Shown: positions 1,044 through 59,908 of the stretch, piece by piece
Layout of the letters: each line of letters opens with the position of its first letter
Position numbering within the stretch: the stretch's first letter is position 1
Source of the DNA: a virus
Taxonomy: Duplodnaviria; Heunggongvirae; Uroviricota; Caudoviricetes
Reading direction: 5' to 3' (one strand)
IMG/VR virus record: IMGVR_UViG_3300022822_000008
Length of the DNA stretch: 64,000 bases
The notes under the pieces: model-generated
What the model was told of the DNA's origin: nothing
The model's database searches: none
What the model saw: only the letters and a program-made list of their open reading frames with translations
Translations under genes and position numbers: made by a program

Positions 1044-1126
1044 TGGTGGGTATGATAGGAATCGAACCTATATTGCCTTGCGGATCAGATTTACAGTCTG
1101 AACACGATCCATACGTGTCTACACGC
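1044..1126 (-). tRNA. tRNA-Tyr-like (anticodon GTA, 13-nt variable arm); acceptor stem has 2 mismatches
   Basis: T-arm ATAGG-TTCGATT-CCTAT; perfect anticodon stem TCAGA/TCTGA with loop CTGTAAA; 3' CCA encoded; acceptor pairing is imperfect, so possibly a pseudogene. Confidence 0.45.
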
Positions 1127-1179
1127 CCAATTTAATACAACTATTATAACAAACTTGAAGTGAAATGTCAACCTTTATT

Positions 1180-2695: not shown

Positions 2696-2725
2696 ATTAT
2701 ATCAAACTTGGTACCAAATGTCAAT
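2696..2725 (-). promoter_or_regulatory. Sigma70-type early promoter (-35 ATTGAC, -10 TTGATATAAT)
   Basis: Minus-strand TTGATATAAT with 17-bp spacing to the -35 box. Confidence 0.5.
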
Positions 2726-2981: not shown

Positions 2982-3056
2982 TGGCTGGGATATCAAGGTA
3001 CGATCCTGAAATGACGGATTTAAAGTCCGTAGTGTTGCCAATTGCACCATATCCCA
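2982..3056 (-). tRNA. tRNA-Gln paralog with anticodon TTA (reads UAA); candidate ochre suppressor; non-canonical T-loop ATCGTAC; CCA encoded
   Basis: Acceptor TGGGATA/TATCCCA is identical to the 5' acceptor of tRNA-Gln(TTG) at 3838..3912, and the discriminator G is shared; perfect anticodon stem ACGGA/TCCGT with loop CTTTAAA; D-stem 3 bp; T-stem TCAGG/CTTGA. Confidence 0.6.
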
Positions 3057-3069
3057 TTTATTAATAAGT

Positions 3070-3172
3070 GATGTTGCCATGGAATCGAACCACGAGGCTG
3101 CCGTCGCATTTAGCTCTTCCAGAACACGCAGGAATCGAACCTACTTGCCTATCCTTATACAACATCATAATT
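3070..3172 (-). other. Degenerate tRNA-like region: two T-arm/acceptor-like modules without a foldable D-arm and anticodon arm (tRNA remnants)
   Basis: Two motifs (CATGG-AATCGAA-CCACG at 3078-3094; GCAGG-AATCGAA-CCTAC at 3128-3144) each with an adjacent acceptor-like 7-mer; no 5-bp stem with 7-nt loop found between them. Confidence 0.3.
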
Positions 3173-3571: not shown

Positions 3572-3820
3572 CTATGATTGTTTTGTTAACTTATATTTAA
3601 TTTTTTTGAAGCCTTCGATACCAAGTATCGCCACGAAAAAGATTAAATAACCAATAGCTCCGCAAGAAATGACAACAGTGATAGGTAACCATAAAGGCGA
3701 AAGTACCCACCACCAAGACCACGTAATTGTACCGACCAACTTTAAAACAATAAAGACAATAGTCAATACTCCCATTGTACCTATACCATCTGAACTTACT
3801 TCTTTTTTCCTTGAACTCAT
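3572..3820 (-). CDS. Small membrane protein; paralog of 2733..2960
   Basis: RBS GAGGAAG upstream of the ATG; two transmembrane segments; conserved motif shared with the paralog. Confidence 0.5.
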   Translation of the reverse strand: MSSRKKEVSSDGIGTMGVLTIVFIVLKLVGTITWSWWWVLSPLWLPITVVISCGAIGYLIFFVAILGIEGFKKIKYKLTKQS

Positions 3821-3837
3821 TTTACTTCCTCATCATA

Positions 3838-3912
3838 TTAATAATCTTGGCAGGGACAGAAGGATTCGAACCTTCGATACCGGATTCAAAGTCCAGCGCC
3901 TTAACCGCTTGG
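3838..3912 (-). tRNA. tRNA-Gln (anticodon TTG), CCA encoded
   Basis: Acceptor TGGGATA/TGTCCCT; perfect T-arm GAAGG-TTCGAAT-CCTTC; anticodon loop CTTTGAA. Confidence 0.75.
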
Positions 3913-3930
3913 CCATATCCCAATTGTAAT

Positions 3931-4022: not shown

Positions 4023-4099
4023 TGGTATCAAGAACTGGAATCGAACCAGTATCAATTATTCGTATCTCTCGAAATGCTCTACCATTGAGCTATCCTGAT
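4023..4099 (-). tRNA. tRNA of undetermined specificity (anticodon loop AGAGATA lacks U33); CCA encoded
   Basis: Perfect T-arm ACTGG-TTCGATT-CCAGT; D-arm GCTC-AATGGTA-GAGC; acceptor ATCAGGA/TCTTGAT; the anticodon arm is non-canonical. Confidence 0.5.
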
Positions 4100-4574: not shown

Positions 4575-4604
4575 TCAGTGTGTACATTGTATCAAATATC
4601 TTGC
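4575..4604 (-). promoter_or_regulatory. Sigma70-type promoter (-35 GTTGAC, -10 TTGATACAAT)
   Basis: Consensus boxes upstream of ORF 4355..4573. Confidence 0.45.
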
Positions 4605-4627
4605 CAATGTCAACAACTAATATAATT

Positions 4628-4695
4628 TGGTGCGTCACAAGGGAGTCGAACCCTCAATGATTGGGTTTAGAATCCTACATTAACCATTATGACGC
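4628..4695 (-). other. Truncated tRNA-like element: acceptor plus T-arm and CCA, no anticodon arm
   Basis: T-arm GAGGG-TTCGACT-CCCTT and acceptor GCGTCAT/GTGACGC pair well, but only ~40 nt remain and no 5-bp stem with 7-nt loop exists; the 5' part overlaps the 3' end of ORF 4680..4949. Confidence 0.3.
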
Positions 4696-4949
4696 AATGT
4701 AACTCCAATACTTAAAACCCATCTGGAGCCTTTTTCAATCTTTTTAACTTTGTGGAAGTTAGCATCTGCTCTAAATAGACAGAATCGCCACCAACGAAAT
4801 ACAACGTTGCTACAAACAAATTCACCACCCTTATCAGCTTTTTTCAATGTAATATTAAACCGATAATGACGACCATATTTACCAGGATCTTTATGTTTTG
4901 GTATAAAGGAGCCTGTTTTATAATGGAATATATAAATGTCTGTCTTCAA
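4680..4949 (-). CDS. Hypothetical protein
   Basis: 89-aa ORF. Confidence 0.4.
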   Translation of the reverse strand: MKTDIYIFHYKTGSFIPKHKDPGKYGRHYRFNITLKKADKGGEFVCSNVVFRWWRFCLFRADANFHKVKKIEKGSRWVLSIGVTLRHNG

Positions 4950-5494
4950 ACGTTTGCTATAGAATAAAGTAAATATTCGATACCCCGAATTAAATTTATC
5001 ATTACCCCAACGGAATAATCTTAAACTTGGCGTTTGCGTTTTCTTCTACATTTTAGCACCTTCTTGTTTATCGAAAAATTCATCAAAACTGCAATGACCC
5101 ACATGAGCAGCAATTTTGTTTAGTTCTACTATCATGATATCTAAATAAGACATCACTTTGTTAAAATCTTCATTACTCATTTTACATTTCCTTATTAATA
5201 TCAATCAAAGAGCGAGTAGCAAGTGAAGCAATAAACAGTATTCGCTTGCCCCGAAGGATACAATACGAACAAAACAAATCACAAAAAACAAATCACACTT
5301 GTCGTTACATTAGTTCAGTTAGCAATGGACAAGTCTTAAGACACCCAATATAGACTGTAGCAGTAACAAATTGACCGTAAAGGTCTCCATTAATGTTCTG
5401 AAATTAATCAGAGGTACTTGTTCTCTTTTCTCTTGATTGATAGTCATCTGTATAGGTCCCCCTAGGGTAGACTGTTTCCGATGACGCGAACTCT

Positions 5495-6170: not shown

Positions 6171-6178
6171 TTATTAGG

Positions 6179-6254
6179 CATCCCCACGTGGATTTGAACC
6201 ACGGTTTCTGCTCCGAACAGAGCATTGTCCTAGGCCTGACTAGACGATAGGGAT
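6179..6254 (-). tRNA. tRNA of uncertain specificity (possibly Asn GTT); anticodon loop is 6 or 8 nt, not 7
   Basis: Perfect T-arm CGTGG-TTCAAAT-CCACG; acceptor ATCCCTA/TGGGGAT; D-stem GTCT/GGAC; anticodon region TGCTC-TGTTCG-GAGCA does not give a 7-nt loop. Confidence 0.5.
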
Positions 6255-6263
6255 ATTAAAATG

Positions 6264-6333
6264 AGCAGGTAAAGGGAATCGAACCCTTTCTACACAGCTT
6301 GGAAGGCTGGCGGATAACCTTTATCTTACCTGC
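6264..6333 (-). tRNA. tRNA-Gly (anticodon TCC), no CCA
   Basis: Perfect acceptor GCAGGTA/TACCTGC; perfect T-arm AAGGG-TTCGATT-CCCTT; anticodon loop CTTCCAA. Confidence 0.65.
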
Positions 6334-7628: not shown

Positions 7629-7704
7629 TGGTGCACCGCCCTGGATTCGAACCAGAAACCTTTCGATTATGAGTCGAGTGCTCTACCAGTTGAGCTAGCA
7701 GTGC
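7629..7704 (-). tRNA. tRNA-Met/Ile2 (anticodon CAT), CCA encoded; near-duplicate body of 3261..3336
   Basis: The internal ~60 nt are identical to the tRNA at 3261..3336 apart from a T-loop base; acceptor GCACTGC/GCGGTGC. Confidence 0.75.
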
Positions 7705-7727: not shown

Positions 7728-7798
7728 TGGTGGAGAACCAGAGAATCGAACTCTGTTCTAGTCGGTGCAAGCGACCATCTGCATCCATGACGTTCCCC
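7728..7798 (-). tRNA. tRNA-Ala (anticodon TGC) with the G3:U70 identity pair, CCA encoded
   Basis: Acceptor GGGGAAC/GTTCTCC gives G3-U70; perfect T-arm CAGAG-TTCGATT-CTCTG; anticodon loop CTTGCAC. Confidence 0.8.
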
Positions 7799-9424: not shown

Positions 9425-9454
9425 ATTATATCAAACTAATTTCTATTTGTCAAC
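9425..9454 (-). promoter_or_regulatory. Sigma70-type early promoter
   Basis: GTTGAC-17-TTGATATAAT upstream of the homing-endonuclease-like ORF. Confidence 0.55.
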
Positions 9455-16545: not shown

Positions 16546-17451
16546 TCAACCATTATATTCTTCCATGATGATATCTTTTATTTTGCTCATATCGTTATAT
16601 TCTGGCAAATCACTCGCCTCAAGTTTTTCCGTAACACTATCATACATATCAGTGATTATAGAAACAGCATCTTCTTGAGGTACTTGACCTAATTTGATTT
16701 TCATAATTTCGTCAGCACGAACCAAAGGAAATACTAAATCTCTTGTGTCGATTATTTCCTCAAGTTGGATAATAGCCCTGACTGCATGACTCAATGCCTT
16801 CCAATCGCCACCTGAATGTGAACTTACTACAGTTCGGTCACCGTAACGACTTATTTTTTGCTCCAAACAAGTTTTAAGATGCTCCATACGACAGGTAATT
16901 TGATTGCGGCTGCCACAAATATCAATGTTAGCAATAATATTATCTTTATGTGGAGTGAACGTAATATATTTAAAATCAGATCTCATTATTTGTTCAGGTA
17001 TCGTGGTTTCAGCAACTCTAACACTATCGTGATAAACATGCAACCAATTATTTAGTTCCTGCATTTCCTGATAACGTCTAACTTTATGGCCATATTTCGT
17101 AGACATCGTTTTTATATAACCAAGAATTCCTCTCATATTTTTACAATAAATGCCAGATCTATTTTTCTGAATTTCATCCCAAGCAGGCGTCGAGTTTAGT
17201 GTAAATTCCTTCGGTGTGTGTATCATATCAACAGAAACAGTATCACCCTTGTCTAGCATGCTGAAATATTTTCCAATTGCATACAGCGAAGTGTCAATAT
17301 CATCAGTTTGTTTTTCTATGACAGGTTGAAAATTTCCAAATACAACATCTTCTAAAGTAGGAACAAAAAGGCCTTTGTAATCTGTATCGCTCTGTGGCCT
17401 AGATAATCCATACAGATGCGAACCAAATACTCCATTAAATAAAATTTTCAT
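16546..17451 (-). CDS. Pol-beta-superfamily nucleotidyltransferase (GS..DxD motif)
   Basis: GVFGSHLYGLSRPQSDTDYKG plus a downstream acidic residue in VSVDMIH. Confidence 0.6.
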   Translation of the reverse strand: MKILFNGVFGSHLYGLSRPQSDTDYKGLFVPTLEDVVFGNFQPVIEKQTDDIDTSLYAIGKYFSMLDKGDTVSVDMIHTPKEFTLNSTPAWDEIQKNRSGIYCKNMRGILGYIKTMSTKYGHKVRRYQEMQELNNWLHVYHDSVRVAETTIPEQIMRSDFKYITFTPHKDNIIANIDICGSRNQITCRMEHLKTCLEQKISRYGDRTVVSSHSGGDWKALSHAVRAIIQLEEIIDTRDLVFPLVRADEIMKIKLGQVPQEDAVSIITDMYDSVTEKLEASDLPEYNDMSKIKDIIMEEYNG

Positions 17452-39360: not shown

Positions 39361-40536
39361 TCATAATTTCATCCCTAACCAAGTTGAAAATTTATCCCAC
39401 TTAGTATTTGATCCTACATTAGATTTCACTTTAGACATCATCATATCTTCAACCTTCTTTGAATCAAGATATCCGAATATAAAGTAACCCAGAGACTTGT
39501 CGTCAAGTTGAGTAATGAATTCCAGCGCAATTGCTTTGCGATTGTCTCCGTACATATTCACAACAAACTTACACATCAGTCCTATTTCAAGTTCTTTATC
39601 TTCGATAGATTTGAAAAACAAGGCTTGTGTATCTTTAACTTTTTTCACATCAGCTTCAAGTAAAATAGGCAACACATCATCAACTTCGTTATTAATAATT
39701 AAATTAATAATATTACGCTGAGAACGTACTAAGTCTTTTACTTTATGAATGCGAACATACCACTCGTTTTTGATTTTAATCATATGACCGGAATCAAATC
39801 GAATAACGACACCCTCGCGTCCTTCCTCTAATTTTATTCCATCAGAAAACCCTTTTAAATTCTTATCAACTTGTCCGTATTCAGGTGCTTTATTAAAAGG
39901 AGGGTAATCTTCGAGAGGTAAGTATTCGCCTGTAATGTTATGACGAAGTGCTAACAAAACCAAATCAGCTGCTTCATATTCCAATACTATTTGATTATCA
40001 GGCGCGATAAATTCAAACAAAGGAGTCACATTAAATCTTAGACATTTTTCCATCCATCCGTAGGATATAGCAGAATCTTCCAATCCTGCAAGATAGGTTT
40101 CAGCCTGCATTGCAACATCAGTCACTCCCATTTTTGTACCTAAGCGAATATGACCATCAACCACAAAAGGGCGAATCATCGAACCATCCATTTTTTCCAT
40201 GACCGTATGAGGTTGAGTAATATCTACAACAGATGGTTGTGTTTCCTCACGTTCATTAAGATTGAAGAACTTATGGAATGGACGGCTGATGATTCGGCCC
40301 GTAGTATCGAAGATTAAACCGCGACATTCTCGGCGCATTGAACCAGTAAGAGGATTTCCTGCAATATCAAAAGTATCATCTTTACAGACGACATAGTTAA
40401 TTACAGTATAACCTTCTTTTTCGACTACAACAAACTCGGTGCGGCCTTCGATGTGCGGTAATACATCTTCGATTGTGTTGATAATTGGAAATTTATAATT
40501 CATTTTTTGCTTCCGCCTTGACCCATTGAAATCCAT
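39361..40536 (-). CDS. rnlA: RNA ligase 1 (T4 RnlA / gp63 family)
   Basis: ECRGLIFD, KFFNLNE and nucleotidyltransferase motif I EKMDGSM align with T4 Rnl1. Confidence 0.8.
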   Translation of the reverse strand: MDFNGSRRKQKMNYKFPIINTIEDVLPHIEGRTEFVVVEKEGYTVINYVVCKDDTFDIAGNPLTGSMRRECRGLIFDTTGRIISRPFHKFFNLNEREETQPSVVDITQPHTVMEKMDGSMIRPFVVDGHIRLGTKMGVTDVAMQAETYLAGLEDSAISYGWMEKCLRFNVTPLFEFIAPDNQIVLEYEAADLVLLALRHNITGEYLPLEDYPPFNKAPEYGQVDKNLKGFSDGIKLEEGREGVVIRFDSGHMIKIKNEWYVRIHKVKDLVRSQRNIINLIINNEVDDVLPILLEADVKKVKDTQALFFKSIEDKELEIGLMCKFVVNMYGDNRKAIALEFITQLDDKSLGYFIFGYLDSKKVEDMMMSKVKSNVGSNTKWDKFSTWLGMKL

Positions 40537-40932: not shown

Positions 40933-41475
40933 TTAATCAGTGTCAACGACTAATTGACTCATTAACAAACCAGCCATCTCGCCATAAATATCTATAAATA
41001 TCACAGTATCAAATCCTTCTTTAAGAGTAGGTTCTTGATAAGATTCCTTCATGCTTTTTAATATGCCTGGCGGTATAGTCTTACCTGGTCGACTTTCAAG
41101 ACGTCGATTCCATTCCGCAATATCTTTTTCTGTTTTTGCAGGCAAAAAAGTCTGGCAAACTACTGTATAGCCTGCTTTGGTCATACGTTCCACGATCACT
41201 TTTCGCTTTTTAGAAGTGAGGTTAGTTTGATCCCATATAACATCTTGATTGTTCACTATGGCTTGAGTTAAACCCACTTCGCAAACTTTAATAGCAGGTT
41301 TAATCGTTTCCATAAAAACATCATTATATGTTTTATCTTCCAATTTAGCTACGGATTCTATATAAGCATCCGACGAATACACAAAAATATTTTTTGATGC
41401 TTTAGACGTCATTGTGCTTTTTCCTGAGGCAGGAAGACCAACCATTACGTGACAGAACTTTTGTTTCGTTTCCAT
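40933..41475 (-). CDS. pnk: Polynucleotide 5'-kinase domain protein (T4 Pnk N-terminal-domain homolog) as a stand-alone ORF
   Basis: Walker A GLPASGKST; SSDAYIE and DQTNLTSKKRK align with T4 Pnk kinase motifs. Confidence 0.65.
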   Translation of the reverse strand: METKQKFCHVMVGLPASGKSTMTSKASKNIFVYSSDAYIESVAKLEDKTYNDVFMETIKPAIKVCEVGLTQAIVNNQDVIWDQTNLTSKKRKVIVERMTKAGYTVVCQTFLPAKTEKDIAEWNRRLESRPGKTIPPGILKSMKESYQEPTLKEGFDTVIFIDIYGEMAGLLMSQLVVDTD

Positions 41476-41933
41476 TAGAAATCTACTCCACTTTGATTAC
41501 AATCAAATACCCAGATGCCTTCTTCGCGCCACATTTTGACAACACGAGGACGATCATCGAATACCATATCAGGCATCTGTTTATAACTTTCTATGATACC
41601 ATATAAGATTTCTCTCTTTACGATTGAGTCGCAGCGATAGTCACCGAATCTACGCATGTATAAATCATCATATTCTCCCATGCCATTTTCGCTCAACCAC
41701 GTTTCAGTATCTTTTCGTGTATCGTCAGAACGCCCAGATGCAAAGATTACATACACATTTGGATCTTCAATATAACGGATGCAAACGTCAACGGTTGCTT
41801 TAATAGGCAAATCAAATTTAATGGCCTTATTAAAAGCAGGCCAGTTTTTTGGTTTACATCTCACATATTTTAAACGGTGATCCAAGTTTGCAACAGTTCC
41901 ATCAATGTCAAACACTACTAATAATTTACTCAT
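41475..41933 (-). CDS. Polynucleotide 3'-phosphatase domain protein (HAD; T4 Pnk C-terminal-domain homolog) as a stand-alone ORF upstream of the kinase ORF
   Basis: DxDGT motif VVFDIDGTVA; C-terminus DDRPRVVKMWREEGIWVFDCNQSGVDF closely matches the T4 Pnk C-terminus. Confidence 0.7.
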   Translation of the reverse strand: MSKLLVVFDIDGTVANLDHRLKYVRCKPKNWPAFNKAIKFDLPIKATVDVCIRYIEDPNVYVIFASGRSDDTRKDTETWLSENGMGEYDDLYMRRFGDYRCDSIVKREILYGIIESYKQMPDMVFDDRPRVVKMWREEGIWVFDCNQSGVDF

Positions 41934-46185: not shown

Positions 46186-47205
46186 TTATTTTTCTTTCAA
46201 CAGATATTTATTGCTTATTGCTTTGAAACTTTTTTGGCCGTCATGGCTTTTAAATACTAAACCTTCTCGATTAGTACTATTTAGAATACTCATTCCGTCT
46301 GCATCTTTAATAATATCAGAAGCAGTTGTATATCGTACAGACAGAGGCGTATAGTATAAAACAGGCACTGAATCTATCCCAACACGTTTAAATTCGAATC
46401 TTGCATCTGGGGTTAAGTATCGTTGTGTTTGTATATCGAATATATCAAATACCTTAAATTGAGTTTTATCAAGTTTGTAGATGTTTTTCTGAATGCCTGG
46501 TCCGATAAGCTCACCTTGAATCGCAATATTATCCCAATATCTACCATCAATAAATCCACAATTTCTCATCTTTGTTTCGATATCTAAACGTCTTGCGCAT
46601 TCCCAAAAGCCATTACCTTCGGTCTCTTTAAGATCGAGATTTCTGCTACATACACCAAATTCACCGTCAATTAGATAACAGGTCATTGAACTGCCTTCTA
46701 ATTTTTCTGTAATTTCCCATGATTCAGGAGAAGTCAAATAGTTGGCAACATGAGACATACAATTTTGAATTCTTTCTTGATCTGTTTTTCTTATTTGCGG
46801 AGGGAAATTACCTTTGGCCATACCTGCAAGTTGAGCATTTACGGGAGGATCGTATTTAGCGATATTCAAAATTTCAGAAACATCGTCACCGATATCCCAA
46901 AAGTCAGTTAGGAGTTCAGTAGATAATATTAGACCTTGACTAATTTGCCCGCGCAATTTAATTGTTCTGAGGCGTTCACCTTTCACGCCTTCATACGTGC
47001 GAGGTTCTTTTCCTTTAGATAGAAACGGTGCCAAATCTATAGGTATCCAACTGTCAATTTCACAAAAAACAATTATCTGTCCTTCGTTGTATTCACCTTT
47101 TCTGATTACAACTTTCCAGCCGTCTACGGTCGCGACTTCAATTGCGTCAGCGTTTTCGATTGGGCTCACGTCGCTAATCATTCGTACTGTTGCCATCTGT
47201 CTCAT
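46186..47205 (-). CDS. Rnl2-superfamily RNA ligase with an extra N-terminal (OB-like) domain and no Rnl2 C-terminal domain (Rnl5/DraRnl-like architecture)
   Basis: Motif I EKLEGSS; GELIGPGIQKNIYKLDKTQFKVFDIFD aligns with T4 Rnl2 GEFAGPGIQKNV...FYVFDI; motif IV EGLVFKS; motif V KAISNK. Confidence 0.7.
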   Translation of the reverse strand: MRQMATVRMISDVSPIENADAIEVATVDGWKVVIRKGEYNEGQIIVFCEIDSWIPIDLAPFLSKGKEPRTYEGVKGERLRTIKLRGQISQGLILSTELLTDFWDIGDDVSEILNIAKYDPPVNAQLAGMAKGNFPPQIRKTDQERIQNCMSHVANYLTSPESWEITEKLEGSSMTCYLIDGEFGVCSRNLDLKETEGNGFWECARRLDIETKMRNCGFIDGRYWDNIAIQGELIGPGIQKNIYKLDKTQFKVFDIFDIQTQRYLTPDARFEFKRVGIDSVPVLYYTPLSVRYTTASDIIKDADGMSILNSTNREGLVFKSHDGQKSFKAISNKYLLKEK

Positions 47206-57076: not shown

Positions 57077-58234
57077 TTACTCGTCAGATAAGATATCACA
57101 AATTTCGTCTGCAAGAGCAGAGAAGAAACCATAATCATTTTTTGGATTGCATCTTGTTGTTTCAGCTGCTGTACCTAATCTAATACCGCTTGTTTGAACG
57201 AATGACCTCGGATCATTAGGAACACTATTTTTGTTTACCGTTATATGTCTTAATTCTAAAAGATCAGCTGCTTCTCTACCGCTATATTTTGAATTACTTA
57301 AATCAAGCAATATGATATGACATTCAGTACCTCCAGTCAGAACTTTAAATCCTCTTTCAATAAAAATATTGGCCATGGTTTGAGCATTAGAAATAACTCT
57401 TTTTGCGTAGCTTATAAATTCTGGTGTATCTGCTTCAATAAAACACTGAGCCTTCGCTGCAATAATATGCATCAATGGACCGCCTTGAGTACCTGGGAAT
57501 ATAGCGCTGTTGATTCGTTTGGATAAGCATTCAGAATTCCATAAAATAAATCCACCACGCGGGCCGCGTAAAGTTTTGTGTGTTGTAGAAGTTACTACAT
57601 CAGCATAGGGTACGGGTGAAGGATAAGCTTTTGCAGCAATTAAACCAGAGTAGTGTGACATATCAGCAACTAAAAAAGCGCCTATTTCGTCTGCAATTTC
57701 TCTGAAGATATGCCATTCGATTATACCTGAATATGCACTAGCACCAGCAACAATAACTTTAGGTTTAAATGTTAACGCTTTGTTTCTAACGTCTTGCATA
57801 TCGATATAGCCATCTTCATCAACTCCATAGGAATAAGAGTCGTAAGTTTTACCTGATATATTTACAACACTGCCATGCGAAAGATGACCGCCTGCAGATA
57901 ATGACATTCCTAACAAAACATCACCAGGTTCAAGAAGTGCTTGATAAACAGCTGTGTTTGCATTCGCGCCAGAATGGGGTTGGACATTTGCAAATCTTGC
58001 ACCATATAACTTACAAACAGAATCAATTGCTAATTGCTCAATTTCGTCCATATGATCGCAGCCATTATAATAACGCCTGCCTGGATATCCTTCAGCATAT
58101 TTGTTAGTAAAGACAGAACCGCACAAATCCATAACTTCTTGACTAGCGAAATTTTCACTAGCAATTAGCTCGATTGTTCTATCTTGTCTTTTCGTTTCTT
58201 TATATAATATTTTTGCTATGCTGTTATCTATCAT
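57077..58234 (-). CDS. glyA: Serine hydroxymethyltransferase
   Basis: SHMT motifs LIASENFAS, YSGLIAA and the PLP-lysine loop TSTTHKTLRGPRGG. Confidence 0.9.
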   Translation of the reverse strand: MIDNSIAKILYKETKRQDRTIELIASENFASQEVMDLCGSVFTNKYAEGYPGRRYYNGCDHMDEIEQLAIDSVCKLYGARFANVQPHSGANANTAVYQALLEPGDVLLGMSLSAGGHLSHGSVVNISGKTYDSYSYGVDEDGYIDMQDVRNKALTFKPKVIVAGASAYSGIIEWHIFREIADEIGAFLVADMSHYSGLIAAKAYPSPVPYADVVTSTTHKTLRGPRGGFILWNSECLSKRINSAIFPGTQGGPLMHIIAAKAQCFIEADTPEFISYAKRVISNAQTMANIFIERGFKVLTGGTECHIILLDLSNSKYSGREAADLLELRHITVNKNSVPNDPRSFVQTSGIRLGTAAETTRCNPKNDYGFFSALADEICDILSDE

Positions 58235-58681
58235 TTATAACCCCATTGTCTTTAGTATATCGTCGTATTCCATTTGACGTCTTTTATCATCTGATAGAAT
58301 TGCCTGTGCTCGTTTTTCCAGTTGCGCCAATGCAGTTTCTTTTTGTTTTAGCTCTATCATGGACATTCTTTTCTTGATGTCAGTAGTCCAATCTTTAACG
58401 TAAAAGCTTTTAAACAATATAGGTTTTGCTATCTGATTCAACGTTGCATCTGCACGACCTCTAAATTCTTCCCACATTAAAAGTTGAGTCAATGATTCAA
58501 CTAACACAGGCGCCGATGCTGTGGCGATATTAATAGAATCAGAATTTCCGAACTTCAAGGAACAATTGGTAACCCAACAACTCTGAAGCTCTGATTTAAC
58601 TTTTGCAATTTCTGTTCTGTCGCTTTCTATTTTTTGGATGATTGCTTCGATCTTATCGTCGATGCCGTAATCTTTACTCAT
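58235..58681 (-). CDS. Hypothetical protein
   Basis: 148-aa ORF, start/stop-adjacent to glyA. Confidence 0.45.
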   Translation of the reverse strand: MSKDYGIDDKIEAIIQKIESDRTEIAKVKSELQSCWVTNCSLKFGNSDSINIATASAPVLVESLTQLLMWEEFRGRADATLNQIAKPILFKSFYVKDWTTDIKKRMSMIELKQKETALAQLEKRAQAILSDDKRRQMEYDDILKTMGL

Positions 58682-58693
58682 TTTTATTTCTCC

Positions 58694-59908
58694 TTAGTAT
58701 CTACGTACAGGGGTAGATGTGCCGTTTGAACAAACCAGAGTAGCCACTTTAAACCCAGTTACTTCTAGCTGTTGTAATAATCTTTCTCTTGTTGTTTCTG
58801 TTTTATTTTCAAAAATAATACTTTCATAGCGCGCCAAAATTTCTCTGGAAGCGGAATCTGGATCGTAATCTTTTATCATTTGACCGTCGATAAATTCTAC
58901 AATTGCAAATAAGTTTCTATTTCTTCCGTTTCCGTAACCGTTATGAAAATGTCTTCTATCATATCTACTTACTAAATTTGATTGGTGATAATAACTTATA
59001 GTGCCATCGAATGTAACGAATTTACCCTTCGTCTCAATCTCTTTAAAAAAAGATACATTACCGGAATAATTGTTTGCAAGTAAATAAGCATCACTTTCTT
59101 TCTTTGTTACATCAGTCAACTTATAACCTGTAATGGGCTGACTTAGTCGCGATTTTTCAAATTCAATTACACGATCTGCATAGTCATCCACACATTCGTC
59201 AAGGATACATTCAGCAAGTTGGGAAGTAGACGGTACAATAAATGTCCTTCTTTCAAAACTGTATTCACAGCAATCTGTGTATTGAAAGATGTGTTTGTTA
59301 CCCTTCAATAACATTCTTCGGCTCATTGCGTTTGAATTGAGTGTGCCGTGAGATTCCTCTTGATACCACGGACGAAATCCGATATAAATCAGTTTGTTTT
59401 CGTTACTTTTCATACTGTAGGTATGACCTTTAACAAAGTCTTTAGTGGATAAGTTTTTGGACTGTTTCTTGGTGTGAATTACGGATTCTCTGTACTGTTC
59501 GGAGTTTGTAGGTAACAACACTAAGTCTTTGCCGCACCAAGCATAAACGCATTCTTCAACAATATCGCGCTTGGATACGTCTGAGTGCATGAGAATACCG
59601 ATTAGATTATCTACTGAAATTTCAAATTCGAAATCGCGCTCATCGTGTACTCTGACTACGCTTCGCCCAGAACCAAAATGTGATCCAGATCTTTCAATTC
59701 CCTTATTGAACATAAAGGAGGTTTGTGGTTTGTTTTCAAGTTCTAAAGTTCCGAGCTGATGATTTCTCCAACTGTCCCATGAGGGTTTCTTCCTGTGTAC
59801 GCCTTTATCATCAACATAGACAATGTAAGCAAGTTTACCAGTGAAGGTACCATAACGTTCTTGAAATCCTACCATAATGGTTTTTGGTATATACAATTTA
59901 CTATTCAT
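58694..59908 (-). CDS. Hypothetical protein (404 aa)
   Basis: Long ORF with no recognisable motif. Confidence 0.55.
   Translation of the reverse strand: MNSKLYIPKTIMVGFQERYGTFTGKLAYIVYVDDKGVHRKKPSWDSWRNHQLGTLELENKPQTSFMFNKGIERSGSHFGSGRSVVRVHDERDFEFEISVDNLIGILMHSDVSKRDIVEECVYAWCGKDLVLLPTNSEQYRESVIHTKKQSKNLSTKDFVKGHTYSMKSNENKLIYIGFRPWYQEESHGTLNSNAMSRRMLLKGNKHIFQYTDCCEYSFERRTFIVPSTSQLAECILDECVDDYADRVIEFEKSRLSQPITGYKLTDVTKKESDAYLLANNYSGNVSFFKEIETKGKFVTFDGTISYYHQSNLVSRYDRRHFHNGYGNGRNRNLFAIVEFIDGQMIKDYDPDSASREILARYESIIFENKTETTRERLLQQLEVTGFKVATLVCSNGTSTPVRRY

What the first reader, a model, noticed from the sequence alone, without database searches (positions are those of the whole stretch)
2982..3056. 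tRNA-Gln paralog with anticodon UUA, a candidate phage-encoded ochre (UAA) suppressor
The element folds into a full 75-nt cloverleaf with encoded CCA. Its 5' acceptor strand TGGGATA, G73 discriminator, U8-G9 and CUUUNAA anticodon-loop context match the bona fide tRNA-Gln(UUG) at 3838..3912. The single G36-to-A change gives anticodon UUA, which pairs with the UAA stop codon. This is the classic route to glutamine-inserting ochre suppressors. UAA terminates many genes in this window, including thyA, so expression would cause readthrough or point to stop-codon recoding elsewhere in the genome. The T-loop is ATCGTAC, i.e. positions 54 and 58 are A and T rather than the near-invariant T54/A58; the T54-A58 pair is therefore swapped to A54-T58, which looks like a compensated rather than broken interaction.
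Basis: partly seen in the sequence, partly recalled or inferred. Interest (0 to 1): 0.75.

Follow-up and report, generated by a model that had tools for sequence, protein, structure and literature searches.

The report
Glutamine-type UUA suppressor tRNA in phage
An uncultured 210-kb phage carries a well-formed glutamine-type tRNA whose anticodon reads the stop codon UAA, yet the 64-kb window studied (TAA ends about 57% of its genes) shows no sign of an altered genetic code, so this is a rare new example of the unexplained "orphan suppressor tRNAs" seen in large phages.

Summary
Window 2982..3056 (minus strand) encodes a 75-nt tRNA with anticodon UUA. ARAGORN calls it tRNA-Stop(tta), and Rfam scores it 47.5 bits against a threshold of 29. 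All stems are intact, the loop is C32-U33…A37-A38, and G73-CCA is encoded. The sequence is identical in three independent metagenome assemblies.

It is a glutamine-type tRNA: 20 of its 30 nearest neighbours are tRNA-Gln. It is not a one-base derivative of the neighbouring tRNA-Gln(UUG), which lies at 3848..3922 (not 3838..3912) and differs at 27 of 75 positions. Its closest relative is the tRNA-Gln(UUG) of Vibrio phage nt-1 (79%).

The odd T-loop (A54/U58) is a recurrent co-varying variant. In 1,097 phage tRNAs, every U58 (26 of 26) comes with A54.

The gene sits in a promoter-driven tRNA operon. The genome shows no adaptation to ochre suppression. TAA ends 57% of ORFs, as expected for 35% GC. 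No gene contains an in-frame TAA, and coding density does not rise under any alternative code. None of about 2,070 tRNAs in 160 related loci has UUA. The late genes could not be reached.

Verdict: a probable weak Gln-inserting ochre suppressor, and a new member of a known but unexplained kind. Recoding is unsupported.

The parts
2982..3056 (-). tRNA with anticodon UUA and a glutamine-type body, 75 nt, G73-CCA encoded
   Evidence: ARAGORN tRNA-Stop(tta). Rfam RF00005 47.5 bits against 29. Stems 7/7, 5/5 and 5/5. Fits the covariation-supported tRNA-Gln cloverleaf. Identical in three assemblies.
3021..3023 (-). Anticodon U34 U35 A36 within the loop C32-U33-UUA-A37-A38
   Evidence: Read from the sequence. 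ARAGORN places the anticodon at position 34.
2998..3004 (-). T loop ATCGTAC with A54 and U58 in place of T54 and A58
   Evidence: Sequence. A54/U58 is a recurrent co-varying variant: 26 of 26 U58 cases have A54 among 1,097 phage tRNAs.
2733..2954 (-). orf73, a small predicted membrane protein starting 27 nt downstream of the tRNA(UUA); paralogue of orf82
   Evidence: 62% amino-acid identity over 47 residues to orf82, E = 4e-22. Called as a gene in metagenome records.
3848..3922 (-). Co-resident tRNA-Gln(UUG) with a bacterial-type D arm and a U1.U72 mismatch
   Evidence: ARAGORN. Rfam 63 bits. 48 of 75 positions identical to the tRNA(UUA).
3572..3820 (-). orf82, a small predicted membrane protein starting 27 nt downstream of tRNA-Gln(UUG); paralogue of orf73
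   Evidence: It has the same spacing and the same level of DNA divergence (62-68%) as the tRNA pair (64%), which fits an old cassette duplication.
4586..4613 (-). Near-consensus sigma-70 promoter (TTGACA-16-TACAAT with TG) at the head of the transcription unit Asp-Ser-Gln-orf82-His-Ile-Met-Phe-tRNA(UUA)-orf73
   Evidence: Promoter scan, 11 of 12 matches. No terminator-like site lies between it and the tRNA on the minus strand except a weak one inside orf82.
2696..2724 (-). Perfect consensus sigma-70 promoter (TTGACA-17-TATAAT with TG) that starts the next transcription unit just downstream of orf73
   Evidence: Promoter scan, 12 of 12 matches.
3057..3172 (-). Spacer between tRNA-Phe and tRNA(UUA) with two T-arm-like hairpins, probably tRNA remnants
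   Evidence: Sequence and fold. Not called by ARAGORN or Rfam. Fold z-score is -1.6.

Best explanation
The element is an intact, co-transcribed tRNA gene of the glutamine family whose anticodon has become UUA. It lies in the large tRNA array of an uncultured jumbo phage (210,608-bp contig, 35% GC) that otherwise uses the standard code.

Most likely mechanism. The tRNA is transcribed from the promoter at 4613..4586 together with seven ordinary tRNAs and is processed normally. The host glutaminyl-tRNA synthetase charges it with glutamine, though less well than a UUG tRNA because G36 is an identity element. The acceptor-stem, G10 and G73 identity elements and U35/A37 are all present. On the ribosome it competes with RF1 and RF2 at UAA, and by U34 wobble more weakly at UAG. 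It inserts Gln at low frequency and so acts as a weak ochre suppressor during infection.

Origin (inferred). The lineage holds two cassettes, each a tRNA-Gln followed by a small membrane ORF. Once a second tRNA-Gln(UUG) was available, the copy with the phage-type body was free to take the G36A change.

Shown: the gene, its structure, its family, its operon context and its reproducibility. Inferred: transcription, charging with Gln, and suppression. Its benefit to the phage is unknown, and nothing in the 64-kb window shows a dedicated readthrough target.
For: - Real tRNA.
- Canonical loop and stems; among the best-formed members of the array.
- Deviates from the 24 near-invariant tRNA-Gln columns at only four positions: G36A, the paired T54A and A58T, and one D-loop base shared with a fecal-phage tRNA-Gln(CUG).
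- Keeps 19 of the 20 pairs in a cloverleaf in which 19 of 20 pairs show compensatory change. Its only non-pair (13-22) is non-canonical in 4 of the 14 tRNAs aligned (this one and three genuine Gln tRNAs).
- T stem differs from nt-1 tRNA-Gln by double compensatory changes (50-64 A-U to C-G; 51-63 G-C to A-U).
- Gln family by nearest neighbours (20 of 30); also by BLAST to nt-1, a fecal phage and about 200 mycobacteriophage tRNA-Gln genes.
- A54/U58 is a conserved functional variant in sense tRNAs.
- Operon context with near-consensus promoters.
- Identical in three independent assemblies.
- Precedent from background knowledge: E. coli supB (glnU UUG to UUA) and supE (CUG to CUA) insert Gln despite the G36A change, and T4 psu2+ ochre suppressors map to the T4 tRNA-Gln gene.
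- Orphan suppressor tRNAs are reported in other standard-code large phages: PMC8386662, PMC6102473, PMC5852040.
Against: - There is no experimental evidence of expression, charging or readthrough.
- The gene is lineage-specific. None of about 1,245 plus 823 tRNAs in 160 distantly related loci has UUA, and UUA variants of this tRNA body are absent from 2.9 million IMG/VR contigs. There is therefore no evidence of long-term selection for the UUA anticodon.
- The phage shows no accommodation to suppression. TAA ends 82 of 144 ORFs, at the share predicted by GC content. Unsuppressible TGA back-up stops are not enriched after TAA (40% after both TAA and TGA).
- G36 is a GlnRS identity element, and UAA is read by both release factors, so activity may be very low.
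- The host is unknown. If it lacks GlnRS, charging would depend on a non-discriminating GluRS.
Confidence: 0.5

Rival explanations
1. Tolerated relic. The UUA tRNA is a redundant tRNA-Gln copy that took a G36A mutation after a second tRNA-Gln(UUG) became available. It is still transcribed and folded but is charged so poorly, or competes so poorly with RF1 and RF2, that it has no meaningful decoding activity. It persists because it is nearly neutral in a lytic phage.
For: - Lineage-specific, with no UUA homologue in about 2,070 tRNAs of related loci or in IMG/VR.
- The genome has a second, fully canonical tRNA-Gln(UUG) 0.8 kb away.
- The same array holds clearly aberrant members: a 6-nt anticodon loop at 6177..6254, a loop without U33 at 4023..4099, and tRNA remnants at 3057..3172. 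Degenerate copies are therefore tolerated here.
- No TAA avoidance and no enrichment of back-up stops.
- All assemblies are near-identical, so there is no population-level evidence of constraint.
Against: - Every stem is intact, CCA is encoded, and the anticodon loop is canonical.
- Only four deviations at 24 near-invariant Gln positions, two of which are a co-varying pair.
- Compensatory T-stem changes relative to the nearest relative. These could, however, pre-date the anticodon change.
- The classical supE and supB suppressors show that G36A tRNA-Gln is charged in vivo (background knowledge).
Confidence: 0.28
2. Stage-specific recoding or programmed readthrough. The tRNA is needed to read in-frame TAA codons (or TAG codons by wobble) in late structural or lysis genes that lie outside the window, as in TAG- and TGA-recoded crAss-like, Lak and other gut phages.
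For: - A suppressor tRNA is the hallmark accessory of recoded phages, and recoding concentrates in late genes (10.1101/2021.08.26.457843).
- The window holds mainly tRNA, nucleotide-metabolism and RNA-repair genes. No structural genes were recognised among the ORFs scanned, and a structural gene starts just beyond window position 1.
- Those late genes could not be retrieved.
- A large-terminase search did not return an intact terminase from the 210,608-bp contig among the best 120 hits. This is weak, ambiguous evidence.
Against: - TAA is the commonest terminator (57-58%) at exactly the GC-expected frequency. Recoded phages, by contrast, are reported to have largely given up the reassigned codon as a stop.
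- Reading TAA, TAG or TGA as sense does not raise coding density.
- All seven same-frame TAA junctions separate independent genes, each with its own start and domain boundaries.
- No release factor or GlnRS was found among the ten ORFs of 294 aa or more that were scanned.
- No TAA recoding has been found in large phage surveys (PMC13037316).
Confidence: 0.06
3. Non-decoding role. The molecule acts as a decoy, inhibitor or resistant substitute in the conflict over host tRNA-targeting defences (anticodon nucleases or T-loop-directed enzymes), or as a processing or regulatory element for the downstream orf73, rather than as a translational suppressor.
For: - The phage carries a full tRNA-repair kit: Rnl1, a PNKP-type phosphatase, an Rnl2-like ligase and an RlaP nucleotidyltransferase. 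This implies exposure to tRNA-cleaving defences.
- This tRNA is the only one in the array with an A54/U58 T loop, which cannot be a substrate for m5U54 formation.
- Both Gln-type tRNAs are coupled, with identical 27-nt spacing, to paralogous small membrane ORFs.
Against: - Nothing in the sequence requires such a role.
- A54/U58 also occurs in many ordinary sense tRNAs of other phages.
- The anticodon loop is fully canonical for decoding.
- No known anticodon nuclease is reported to target a UUA anticodon (background knowledge).
Confidence: 0.08
4. Suppressor with a different amino-acid identity. The tRNA is active at UAA but is charged mainly with another amino acid, such as Lys, because the UUA anticodon weakens GlnRS recognition and resembles UUU.
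For: - Five of the 30 nearest neighbours are tRNA-Lys(UUU).
- U34 and U35 are shared with the Lys anticodon.
- The phiKp24 'tRNA-Sup-TTA' was assigned a non-Gln (arginine) identity by its authors (PMC8386662). Phage UUA tRNAs are therefore not all Gln-type.
Against: - G73, U1-A72, G2-C71, G3-C70 and G10 match the Gln identity set, whereas tRNA-Lys has A73 (plus background knowledge).
- The six closest tRNAs are all Gln.
Confidence: 0.06

Closest known systems
E. coli glutamine nonsense suppressors supB (glnU, UUG to UUA, ochre) and supE (glnV, CUG to CUA, amber); background knowledge, not found in the searchable library
   Same: Same route: a tRNA-Gln whose position 36 has changed from G to A. 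The acceptor-stem and G73 identity elements are retained. The predicted result is Gln insertion at UAA, and at UAG by wobble.
   Different: Those are laboratory or strain alleles of chromosomal genes and differ from wild type by one base. This is a natural phage gene of a separate tRNA-Gln lineage, with an A54/U58 T loop, sitting beside an intact tRNA-Gln(UUG).
Phage T4 psu2+ ochre suppressors derived from the T4 tRNA-Gln gene (Comer, Seidman and McClain, 1974; background knowledge, not corroborated in the library)
   Same: A phage-encoded tRNA-Gln in a phage tRNA cluster that becomes an ochre suppressor through an anticodon change.
   Different: The T4 suppressors were selected in the laboratory from a phage with a single tRNA-Gln gene. 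Here the UUA form is the wild-type state in environmental populations from at least three samples.
Orphan suppressor tRNAs in standard-code large phages: Klebsiella jumbo phage phiKp24 tRNA-Sup-TTA (PMC8386662), Xanthomonas XacN1 with two Sup-CUA genes (PMC5852040), Agrobacterium Atu_ph07 Sup-UCA (PMC6102473)
   Same: A lone stop-anticodon tRNA inside a large tRNA array of a lytic jumbo phage whose genes use all three stops normally. No readthrough targets were identified (XacN1 authors; this work).
   Different: The phiKp24 UUA tRNA was given an arginine-type identity by its authors, whereas this one is clearly Gln-type. There is no sequence similarity to any of them by BLAST.
Suppressor tRNAs of stop-codon-recoded phages (crAss-like, Lak and others; TAG to Gln, TGA to Trp; 10.1101/2021.08.26.457843, PMC9523058)
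   Same: A phage-encoded suppressor tRNA, often Gln-inserting, in a large phage genome.
   Different: Those phages have in-frame reassigned stops, higher coding density under the alternative code, and depletion of the reassigned stop as a terminator. All three were tested here and none was met in the 64-kb window. TAA recoding has not been reported for any phage (PMC13037316).
tRNA-Gln(UUG) of Vibrio phage nt-1 (Straboviridae, Mylasvirus; NC_021529.2 95232..95305, unannotated in the record)
   Same: Nearest sequence relative, 78.7% over the full length. It shares the acceptor stem TGGGATA/TATCCCA, the D-arm type, the anticodon stem ACGGA/TCCGT and G73-CCA.
   Different: nt-1 has anticodon UUG, a standard TTCGAAT T loop and a U13-G22 pair.

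Membership tests
Canonical elongator tRNA (Rfam RF00005) | Covariance-model score above the curated gathering threshold | tested here: met
   47.5 bits against 29, E = 7.7e-8, full-length match to model positions 1-71. ARAGORN also calls it.
Canonical elongator tRNA (Rfam RF00005) | Cloverleaf with 7-bp acceptor, D stem, 5-bp anticodon stem, 7-nt loop with U33 and a purine at 37, and 5-bp T stem ending in G53-C61 | tested here: met
   Stems 7/7, 5/5 and 5/5; loop C-U-UUA-A-A; G53-C61 present. The D stem has 3 pairs plus C13.A22, a position that is non-canonical in 4 of the 14 aligned tRNAs.
Canonical elongator tRNA (Rfam RF00005) | Conserved tertiary nucleotides U8, A14, G18-G19, U55-C56 and the T54-A58 reverse-Hoogsteen pair | tested here: inconclusive
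   U8, A14, G18 G19, U55 C56 and an A15-U48 Levitt pair are present. Positions 54 and 58 are A and U instead of T and A. The swap co-varies perfectly in 26 phage tRNAs, which argues that it is functional, but its three-dimensional equivalence was not tested.
tRNA-Gln family | Overall sequence kinship with tRNA-Gln genes, ignoring the anticodon | tested here: met
   20 of the 30 nearest neighbours, including the top 6, are Gln, although Gln is 38 of 925 tRNAs in the set. The best BLAST hits are tRNA-Gln of nt-1, a fecal phage and cluster-C mycobacteriophages.
tRNA-Gln family | E. coli-type GlnRS identity set: weak 1-72 pair, G2-C71, G3-C70, G10, G73, U35, G36, A37 (set recalled from the literature) | tested here: not met
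   All elements are present except G36, which is A. This is the suppressor change itself. The supE and supB precedent shows that it is tolerated in vivo at reduced efficiency (background knowledge).
tRNA-Gln family | Aminoacylation with glutamine | not testable with these tools
   Needs in vitro charging or mass spectrometry. The host, and therefore its Gln-charging pathway, is unknown (one search gave no host lead).
Functional ochre suppressor tRNA | Anticodon complementary to UAA in a standard 7-nt loop | tested here: met
   U34 U35 A36 at window 3023..3021. The same hairpin appears in the unconstrained fold.
Functional ochre suppressor tRNA | Expression as a mature tRNA | not testable with these tools
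   Context only: the gene lies inside a tRNA operon downstream of an 11/12 sigma-70 promoter with no strong terminator in between, and CCA is encoded.
Functional ochre suppressor tRNA | Measurable readthrough of UAA | not testable with these tools
   Requires a reporter assay.
Stop-codon-recoded phage (alternative genetic code) | Higher coding density or longer genes when the stop is read as sense | tested here: not met
   Coding fraction is 0.846 under the standard code, 0.834 with TAA as sense, and 0.849 with TAG or TGA as sense.
Stop-codon-recoded phage (alternative genetic code) | In-frame reassigned stops inside conserved genes | tested here: not met
   Seven same-frame TAA junctions were examined. 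All downstream ORFs have their own starts, and the Pfam domains (SHMT, ThyA, Metallophos, HAD_PNKP, WYL_2) end or begin at ORF boundaries. The late genes outside the window were not tested.
Stop-codon-recoded phage (alternative genetic code) | Depletion of the reassigned codon as a terminator | tested here: not met
   TAA ends 82 of 144 ORFs. Its 58% share compares with 56% predicted from GC content and 60 +/- 17% in 32 related loci of similar GC.

The most novel reading that the evidence does not exclude
The tRNA(UUA) is required to decode in-frame TAA codons (or TAG codons by wobble) in late structural or lysis genes of this 210-kb phage, which lie outside the window. That would make it the first phage known to reassign, or to read through in a programmed way, the ochre codon. 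The suppressor, produced from the upstream tRNA operon, would then gate late-gene translation.
Probability: 0.05. Interest if true: 0.9.

Novelty: new member of a known kind. Interest (0 to 1): 0.45.

Why it matters
Natural suppressor tRNAs keep turning up in the tRNA arrays of large lytic phages that otherwise use the standard code, and nobody knows why. UUA (ochre) suppressors are the rarest and the most paradoxical, because UAA is the main terminator of AT-rich phages and their hosts.

This example is unusually clean. It has an unambiguous Gln-type body, all stems are intact, CCA is encoded, it lies in an operon, and it is reproducible across samples. It could be synthesised directly and tested in a reporter strain.

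If it is active, it would show that a phage can tolerate, or exploit, genome-wide low-level ochre readthrough during infection. If the unseen late genes hold in-frame TAA, it would be the first case of ochre recoding in a virus of bacteria.

The side observation has its own bearing on tRNA structural biology and on phage evasion of tRNA-directed host enzymes. The supposedly universal T54-A58 pair is replaced by a co-varying A54-U58 pair in about 2% of these phage tRNAs.

Tried and rejected
1. Searching IMG/VR for the anticodon arm CGGACTTTAAATCCG gave 56 loci, none with a homologous tRNA. One gut-phage family has a D-armless tRNA-like element that scores only 19.5 bits.
2. A Gln acceptor plus UUA arm pattern gave no hits in IMG/VR. 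A phage-type Gln D-arm plus CTTTAAA pattern gave one truncated tRNA fragment.
3. Relatives found through the 190-aa ORF in IMG/VR and in metagenomes were all 49% identical or less and had no UUA tRNA. Comparative analysis of true orthologues was therefore impossible.
4. Reaching the late genes failed three ways. Walking along ENA contig k141_107833 returned only a 95% variant whose contig ends 2 kb further on. A KB57 terminase query returned no hit carrying the 210,608-bp contig fingerprint among the best 120. The 59-aa gene beyond window position 1 led to unrelated phages.
5. Host identification from the co-resident tRNA-Gln hit only Acidobacteria and Chloroflexota MAGs, which is not credible for a 35% GC phage.
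6. A sample-accession search in the literature found nothing.
7. The idea that the C13.A22 mismatch or the A54/U58 loop marks a pseudogene was rejected on family statistics.
8. The idea that the run of three same-frame genes 59908..57077 (967 aa with TAA read as sense) is one readthrough protein was rejected. SHMT starts at its own ATG, and its Pfam match begins at profile position 1.
9. The spacer 3057..3172 as a structured RNA was rejected: z = -1.6 and no Rfam or ARAGORN call.
Full report
**1. What is there.** ARAGORN finds 23 tRNA genes between window 611 and 8625, all on the minus strand. One of them is "tRNA-Stop, anticodon (tta)" at exactly 2982..3056. Rfam's tRNA covariance model matches 2985..3056 full-length at 47.5 bits against a gathering score of 29, E = 7.7e-8. 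That is within the 36.8-68.9 bit range of the other tRNA-model matches in the region.

Read on the minus strand, the 75-nt sequence is TGGGATA TG GTGC AATTGGCA ACAC T ACGGA CTTTAAA TCCGT CATT TCAGG ATCGTAC CTTGA TATCCCA G CCA.
- The acceptor stem is 7/7, the anticodon stem 5/5 and the T stem 5/5 with one G.U.
- The loop is C32-U33-U34-U35-A36-A37-A38, and G73-CCA is encoded.
- U8, A14, G18-G19, U55-C56, G53-C61 and an A15-U48 Levitt pair are present.
- The anticodon hairpin also appears in the unconstrained minimum-free-energy fold, so no alternative fold offers a different anticodon.
- The same 75 nt occur, base for base, in independent assemblies from JGI 3300022841, ENA ERZ27315966 and ENA ERZ27315695.

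Three details need correcting. The gene is on the minus strand. The bona fide tRNA-Gln(UUG) lies at 3848..3922, not 3838..3912. The two tRNAs differ at 27 of 75 positions, not one.

**2. Which tRNA family.** I compared the tRNA with 925 unique tRNAs of 80 nt or less, taken from the window and all fetched phage loci. Its top six neighbours are tRNA-Gln, as are 20 of the top 30, although Gln makes up only 38 of the 925.

BLAST against GenBank phages gives these best matches:
- an unannotated stretch of Vibrio phage nt-1 and CZ01 (78.7% over all 75 nt), which ARAGORN calls tRNA-Gln(UUG);
- a fecal-phage tRNA-Gln(CUG) (74%);
- about 200 mycobacteriophage tRNA-Gln genes (85.7% over positions 8-56).

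The window tRNA shares with these a phage-type D arm (GTGYAATTGGYAACAC), the anticodon stem ACGGA/TCCGT and the variable loop. The co-resident tRNA-Gln(UUG) instead has a bacterial-type D arm (GCCAAGCGGTTAAGGC) and a U1.U72 mismatch. The UUA tRNA carries U1-A72, G2-C71, G3-C70, G10, G73, U35 and A37, which is the E. coli GlnRS identity set minus G36 (set recalled from the literature). It is therefore a glutamine-type tRNA, but it belongs to a different lineage from its neighbour.

**3. Is it decaying?** I aligned it with 38 bona fide tRNA-Gln genes. It departs from the 24 columns that are at least 90% conserved at only four positions: G36A, T54A, A58T, and one D-loop base that the fecal-phage tRNA-Gln also carries.

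RNAalifold on 14 Gln-type tRNAs recovers the cloverleaf, with compensatory changes at 19 of 20 pairs. The UUA tRNA keeps every pair except 13-22 (C.A), and that position is also non-canonical in three genuine Gln tRNAs, so 4 of the 14 sequences in all. Relative to nt-1, two T-stem pairs have changed on both sides: A-U to C-G and G-C to A-U.

Within its own array it is among the best-formed members. The aberrant ones are a Glu-like gene with a 6-nt anticodon loop (6177..6254) and a "Ser(aga)" gene without U33 (4023..4099).

**4. The T loop.** Among 1,097 unique, well-registered tRNAs from the fetched phage loci, positions 54/58 are T/A in 1,050, A/T in 26 and A/A in 16. Every one of the 26 U58 cases has A54.

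The A/T cases are ordinary sense tRNAs: Asp, Ile, Lys, Glu, Gln, Thr, Asn, Trp and Leu. Some, such as tRNA-Asp with ATCGTTA, recur in many contigs with different T stems, which indicates conserved, functional genes. A review of T-loop biology treats U54 as universal apart from the eukaryotic initiator and does not mention this variant (PMC7912444).

**5. Context and expression.** The window has 35% GC, and all long ORFs are on the minus strand. It encodes T4-type RNA ligase 1, an Rnl2-like ligase, an RlaP nucleotidyltransferase, a PNKP-type phosphatase, NAMPT, SHMT, ThyA and a DNA ligase.

Exact-protein look-ups place the window proteins on a 210,608-bp contig, so this is a jumbo phage. The nearest described phages are only about 53% identical in a 671-aa protein, and there is no close DNA match in GenBank phages.

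On the minus strand there are perfect or near-perfect extended -10 sigma-70 promoters at 9453, 6836, 4613, 2724 and 1171. The UUA tRNA lies in the unit that starts at 4613..4586. That unit reads Asp, Ser(aga), Gln(UUG), orf82, His, Ile, Met, Phe, a 116-nt spacer with tRNA remnants, tRNA(UUA) and orf73, and it ends before the promoter at 2724..2696. Co-transcription with ordinary tRNAs is thus likely, but it is inferred.

orf73 and orf82 are paralogous small membrane proteins (62% identity over 47 residues). Each starts 27 nt after its Gln-type tRNA. The tRNA pair (64%) and the ORF pair (62-68%) have diverged to the same degree. This fits an old duplication of a tRNA-Gln-plus-ORF cassette, with one copy later acquiring a different D arm. 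This origin is an inference.

**6. Does the genome show recoding or accommodation to ochre suppression?** No, within what could be examined.
- Of 144 minus-strand ORFs of at least 50 aa, 82 end in TAA, 45 in TGA and 17 in TAG.
- The TAA share (58% with an 80-aa cut-off) matches the 56% predicted from GC content across 73 related phage loci. It also matches the 60 +/- 17% seen in 32 loci of similar GC, none of which has the suppressor.
- Coding density is 0.846 under the standard code and does not rise if TAA (0.834), TAG (0.849) or TGA (0.849) is read as sense.
- After a TAA, the next in-frame stop is TGA in 40% of cases, the same as after TGA-terminated genes. Unsuppressible back-up stops are therefore not enriched.
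- Seven gene pairs are separated by a single in-frame TAA. In each, the downstream ORF has its own start within 0-4 codons and a typical N-terminus.
- Pfam domains (SHMT from profile position 1; ThyA 2-266 of 266, ending at the TAA; Metallophos; HAD_PNKP; WYL_2) never cross a junction.
- The ENA contig that extends 9.3 kb beyond the window end carries densely packed standard-code gene calls.
- No release factor or GlnRS was found among the ten ORFs of 294 aa or more that were scanned.

**7. Distribution.**
- None of about 1,245 tRNAs in 80 IMG/VR loci, and none of 823 tRNAs in 80 metagenome loci, has a UUA anticodon. These loci encode relatives of a neighbouring 190-aa protein at 49% identity or less.
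- Two IMG/VR pattern searches designed to catch UUA variants of Gln-type bodies found nothing except one truncated fragment.
- The UUA state is therefore a rare, lineage-specific event. No orthologue was available to test for purifying selection on the anticodon.
- The assemblies that cover the locus are 99.97-100% identical to the window.

**8. What is known.**
- Surveys of recoded phages report TAG and TGA reassignment with matching suppressor tRNAs, concentrated in late genes (10.1101/2021.08.26.457843). A 2026 jumbo-phage survey states that no phage recodes TAA (PMC13037316).
- Lone suppressor tRNAs have been noted in standard-code large phages. phiKp24 has a tRNA-Sup-TTA that its authors assigned an arginine identity (PMC8386662). 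XacN1 has two CUA suppressors, for which in-silico readthrough found no targets (PMC5852040). Atu_ph07 has a UCA suppressor (PMC6102473).
- From background knowledge, not corroborated in the searchable library: E. coli supB and supE, and T4 psu2+, show that G36A tRNA-Gln molecules are charged with Gln and suppress ochre and amber codons. Ochre suppression is generally weak because both release factors read UAA.

**9. Interpretation.** The best-supported reading is a structurally sound, co-transcribed glutamine-type tRNA that acts as a weak Gln-inserting ochre suppressor, and to a lesser extent an amber suppressor, during infection. It probably arose by G36A in the older of two tRNA-Gln cassettes once a second tRNA-Gln(UUG) made it redundant (confidence about 0.5).

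The rivals are:
- **Tolerated relic (about 0.28).** The same molecule is functionally silent. I cannot separate this from the best reading without an assay. The lack of conservation and of any genomic accommodation favours it. The intact structure and the supE/supB precedent argue against complete inactivity.
- **Late-gene recoding or programmed readthrough (about 0.06).** This is not excluded, because the structural genes lie outside the window and could not be fetched. A tail-fibre-like gene starts just beyond window position 1. The normal use of TAA as the main terminator makes it unlikely.
- **A non-decoding, anti-defence or decoy role (about 0.08).**
- **A different amino-acid identity (about 0.06).**

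**10. Verdict.** The interpretation as a Gln-type candidate ochre suppressor with a compensated T-loop is supported. The "single-mutation paralogue" claim and the hint of recoding are not. The element is a new member of a known, unexplained kind: orphan suppressor tRNAs in jumbo-phage tRNA arrays. It is notable as a clean Gln-type UUA example. Interest is moderate (0.45). It would rise sharply only if the unseen late genes carry in-frame TAA or TAG.

Noticed in passing
Fetched phage loci L057-L220 (examples: tRNA-Asp with T loop ATCGTTA in at least 8 contigs); window 2998..3004: About 2.4% (26 of 1,097) of unique phage tRNAs have the T54-A58 pair swapped to A54-U58, and U58 never occurs without A54. 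Another 16 have A54/A58, mostly tRNA-His with ATCGATA. The variant sits in ordinary sense tRNAs and is conserved across contigs with different T stems. A T-loop review (PMC7912444) does not mention it.
   Followed up: partly
window 6177..6254 (-): A Glu-like tRNA, called 'tRNA-???' by ARAGORN, has an intact acceptor stem and T arm but a 6-nt anticodon loop (stem TGCTC/GAGCA, loop TGTTCG). Its homologue in the closest relative (L141) is a normal tRNA-Glu(UUC).
   Followed up: partly
window 4023..4099 (-): The gene called 'tRNA-Ser(aga)' has a class-I body with no long variable arm and an anticodon loop AGAGATA that lacks U33. It is unlikely to be a serine tRNA, and its decoding role is unclear.
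   Followed up: no
window 3057..3172 (-): The spacer between tRNA-Phe and tRNA(UUA) contains two T-arm-like hairpins with TTCGATT loops, closed by a 9-bp stem. Neither ARAGORN nor Rfam calls it a tRNA, and the fold z-score is only -1.6. These are probably remnants of older tRNA genes.
   Followed up: yes
window 1047..1128 (-), 6264..6333 (-), 7728..7798 (-): Rfam finds two more tRNA-model matches that ARAGORN misses. One (36.8 bits) has a GUA anticodon and a long variable arm (Tyr-like), and the other scores 39.2 bits. Rfam also gives a sub-threshold tmRNA-model hit (26 bits) next to tRNA-Met.
   Followed up: no
window ~7651..7671 (L137 7650..8416); window 4578..5060 (L140): There is strain-level indel polymorphism inside the tRNA array. 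One ENA assembly has a 767-bp insertion carrying a 215-aa ORF, possibly a homing endonuclease. Another assembly lacks about 480 bp, including the 89-aa 2OG-Fe(II)-like ORF.
   Followed up: partly
window 39361..40536, 41475..41933, 46186..47205, 16546..17451 (all -): The phage carries a complete tRNA-repair toolkit: T4-type RNA ligase 1, a PNKP-type HAD phosphatase, an Rnl2-like ligase and an RlaP nucleotidyltransferase. This suggests that it faces host tRNA-cleaving defences.
   Followed up: partly
window 9425..9453, 2696..2724, 1143..1171 (all -): Three perfect 12/12 sigma-70 promoters with an extended -10 TG (TTGACA-17-TATAAT), plus two 11/12 promoters, punctuate the tRNA array. This implies a host with E. 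coli-like sigma-70 recognition rather than, for example, a Bacteroidota host.
   Followed up: no
just beyond window position 1 (L138 7962..8198; L226 1517..1771): A gene with a tail-fibre-like N-terminus (PISLSEYYG...ISFS.FRG) starts about 215 nt beyond the window start. It shows amino-acid differences between samples, and five assemblies break within or shortly before it. The structural module probably begins here, as in the NAMPT-tRNA-terminase synteny of Klebsiella phage KB57.
   Followed up: partly
L010, L021, L028 (9312..9376), L033, L035 (gut IMG/VR contigs of about 190 kb): A conserved D-armless tRNA-like element sits inside the tRNA arrays of gut jumbo-phage contigs. It has the anticodon loop CUUUAAA (UUA), a long variable arm and a normal T arm. 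ARAGORN does not call it, and it scores only 19.5 bits to the tRNA-Sec model.
   Followed up: partly
L221 6001..6074 (Vibrio phage nt-1, NC_021529.2 95232..95305): The nt-1 RefSeq record lists no tRNA features in this 12-kb stretch, where ARAGORN finds 28 tRNA genes, including the tRNA-Gln(UUG) closest to the window's tRNA(UUA).
   Followed up: yes
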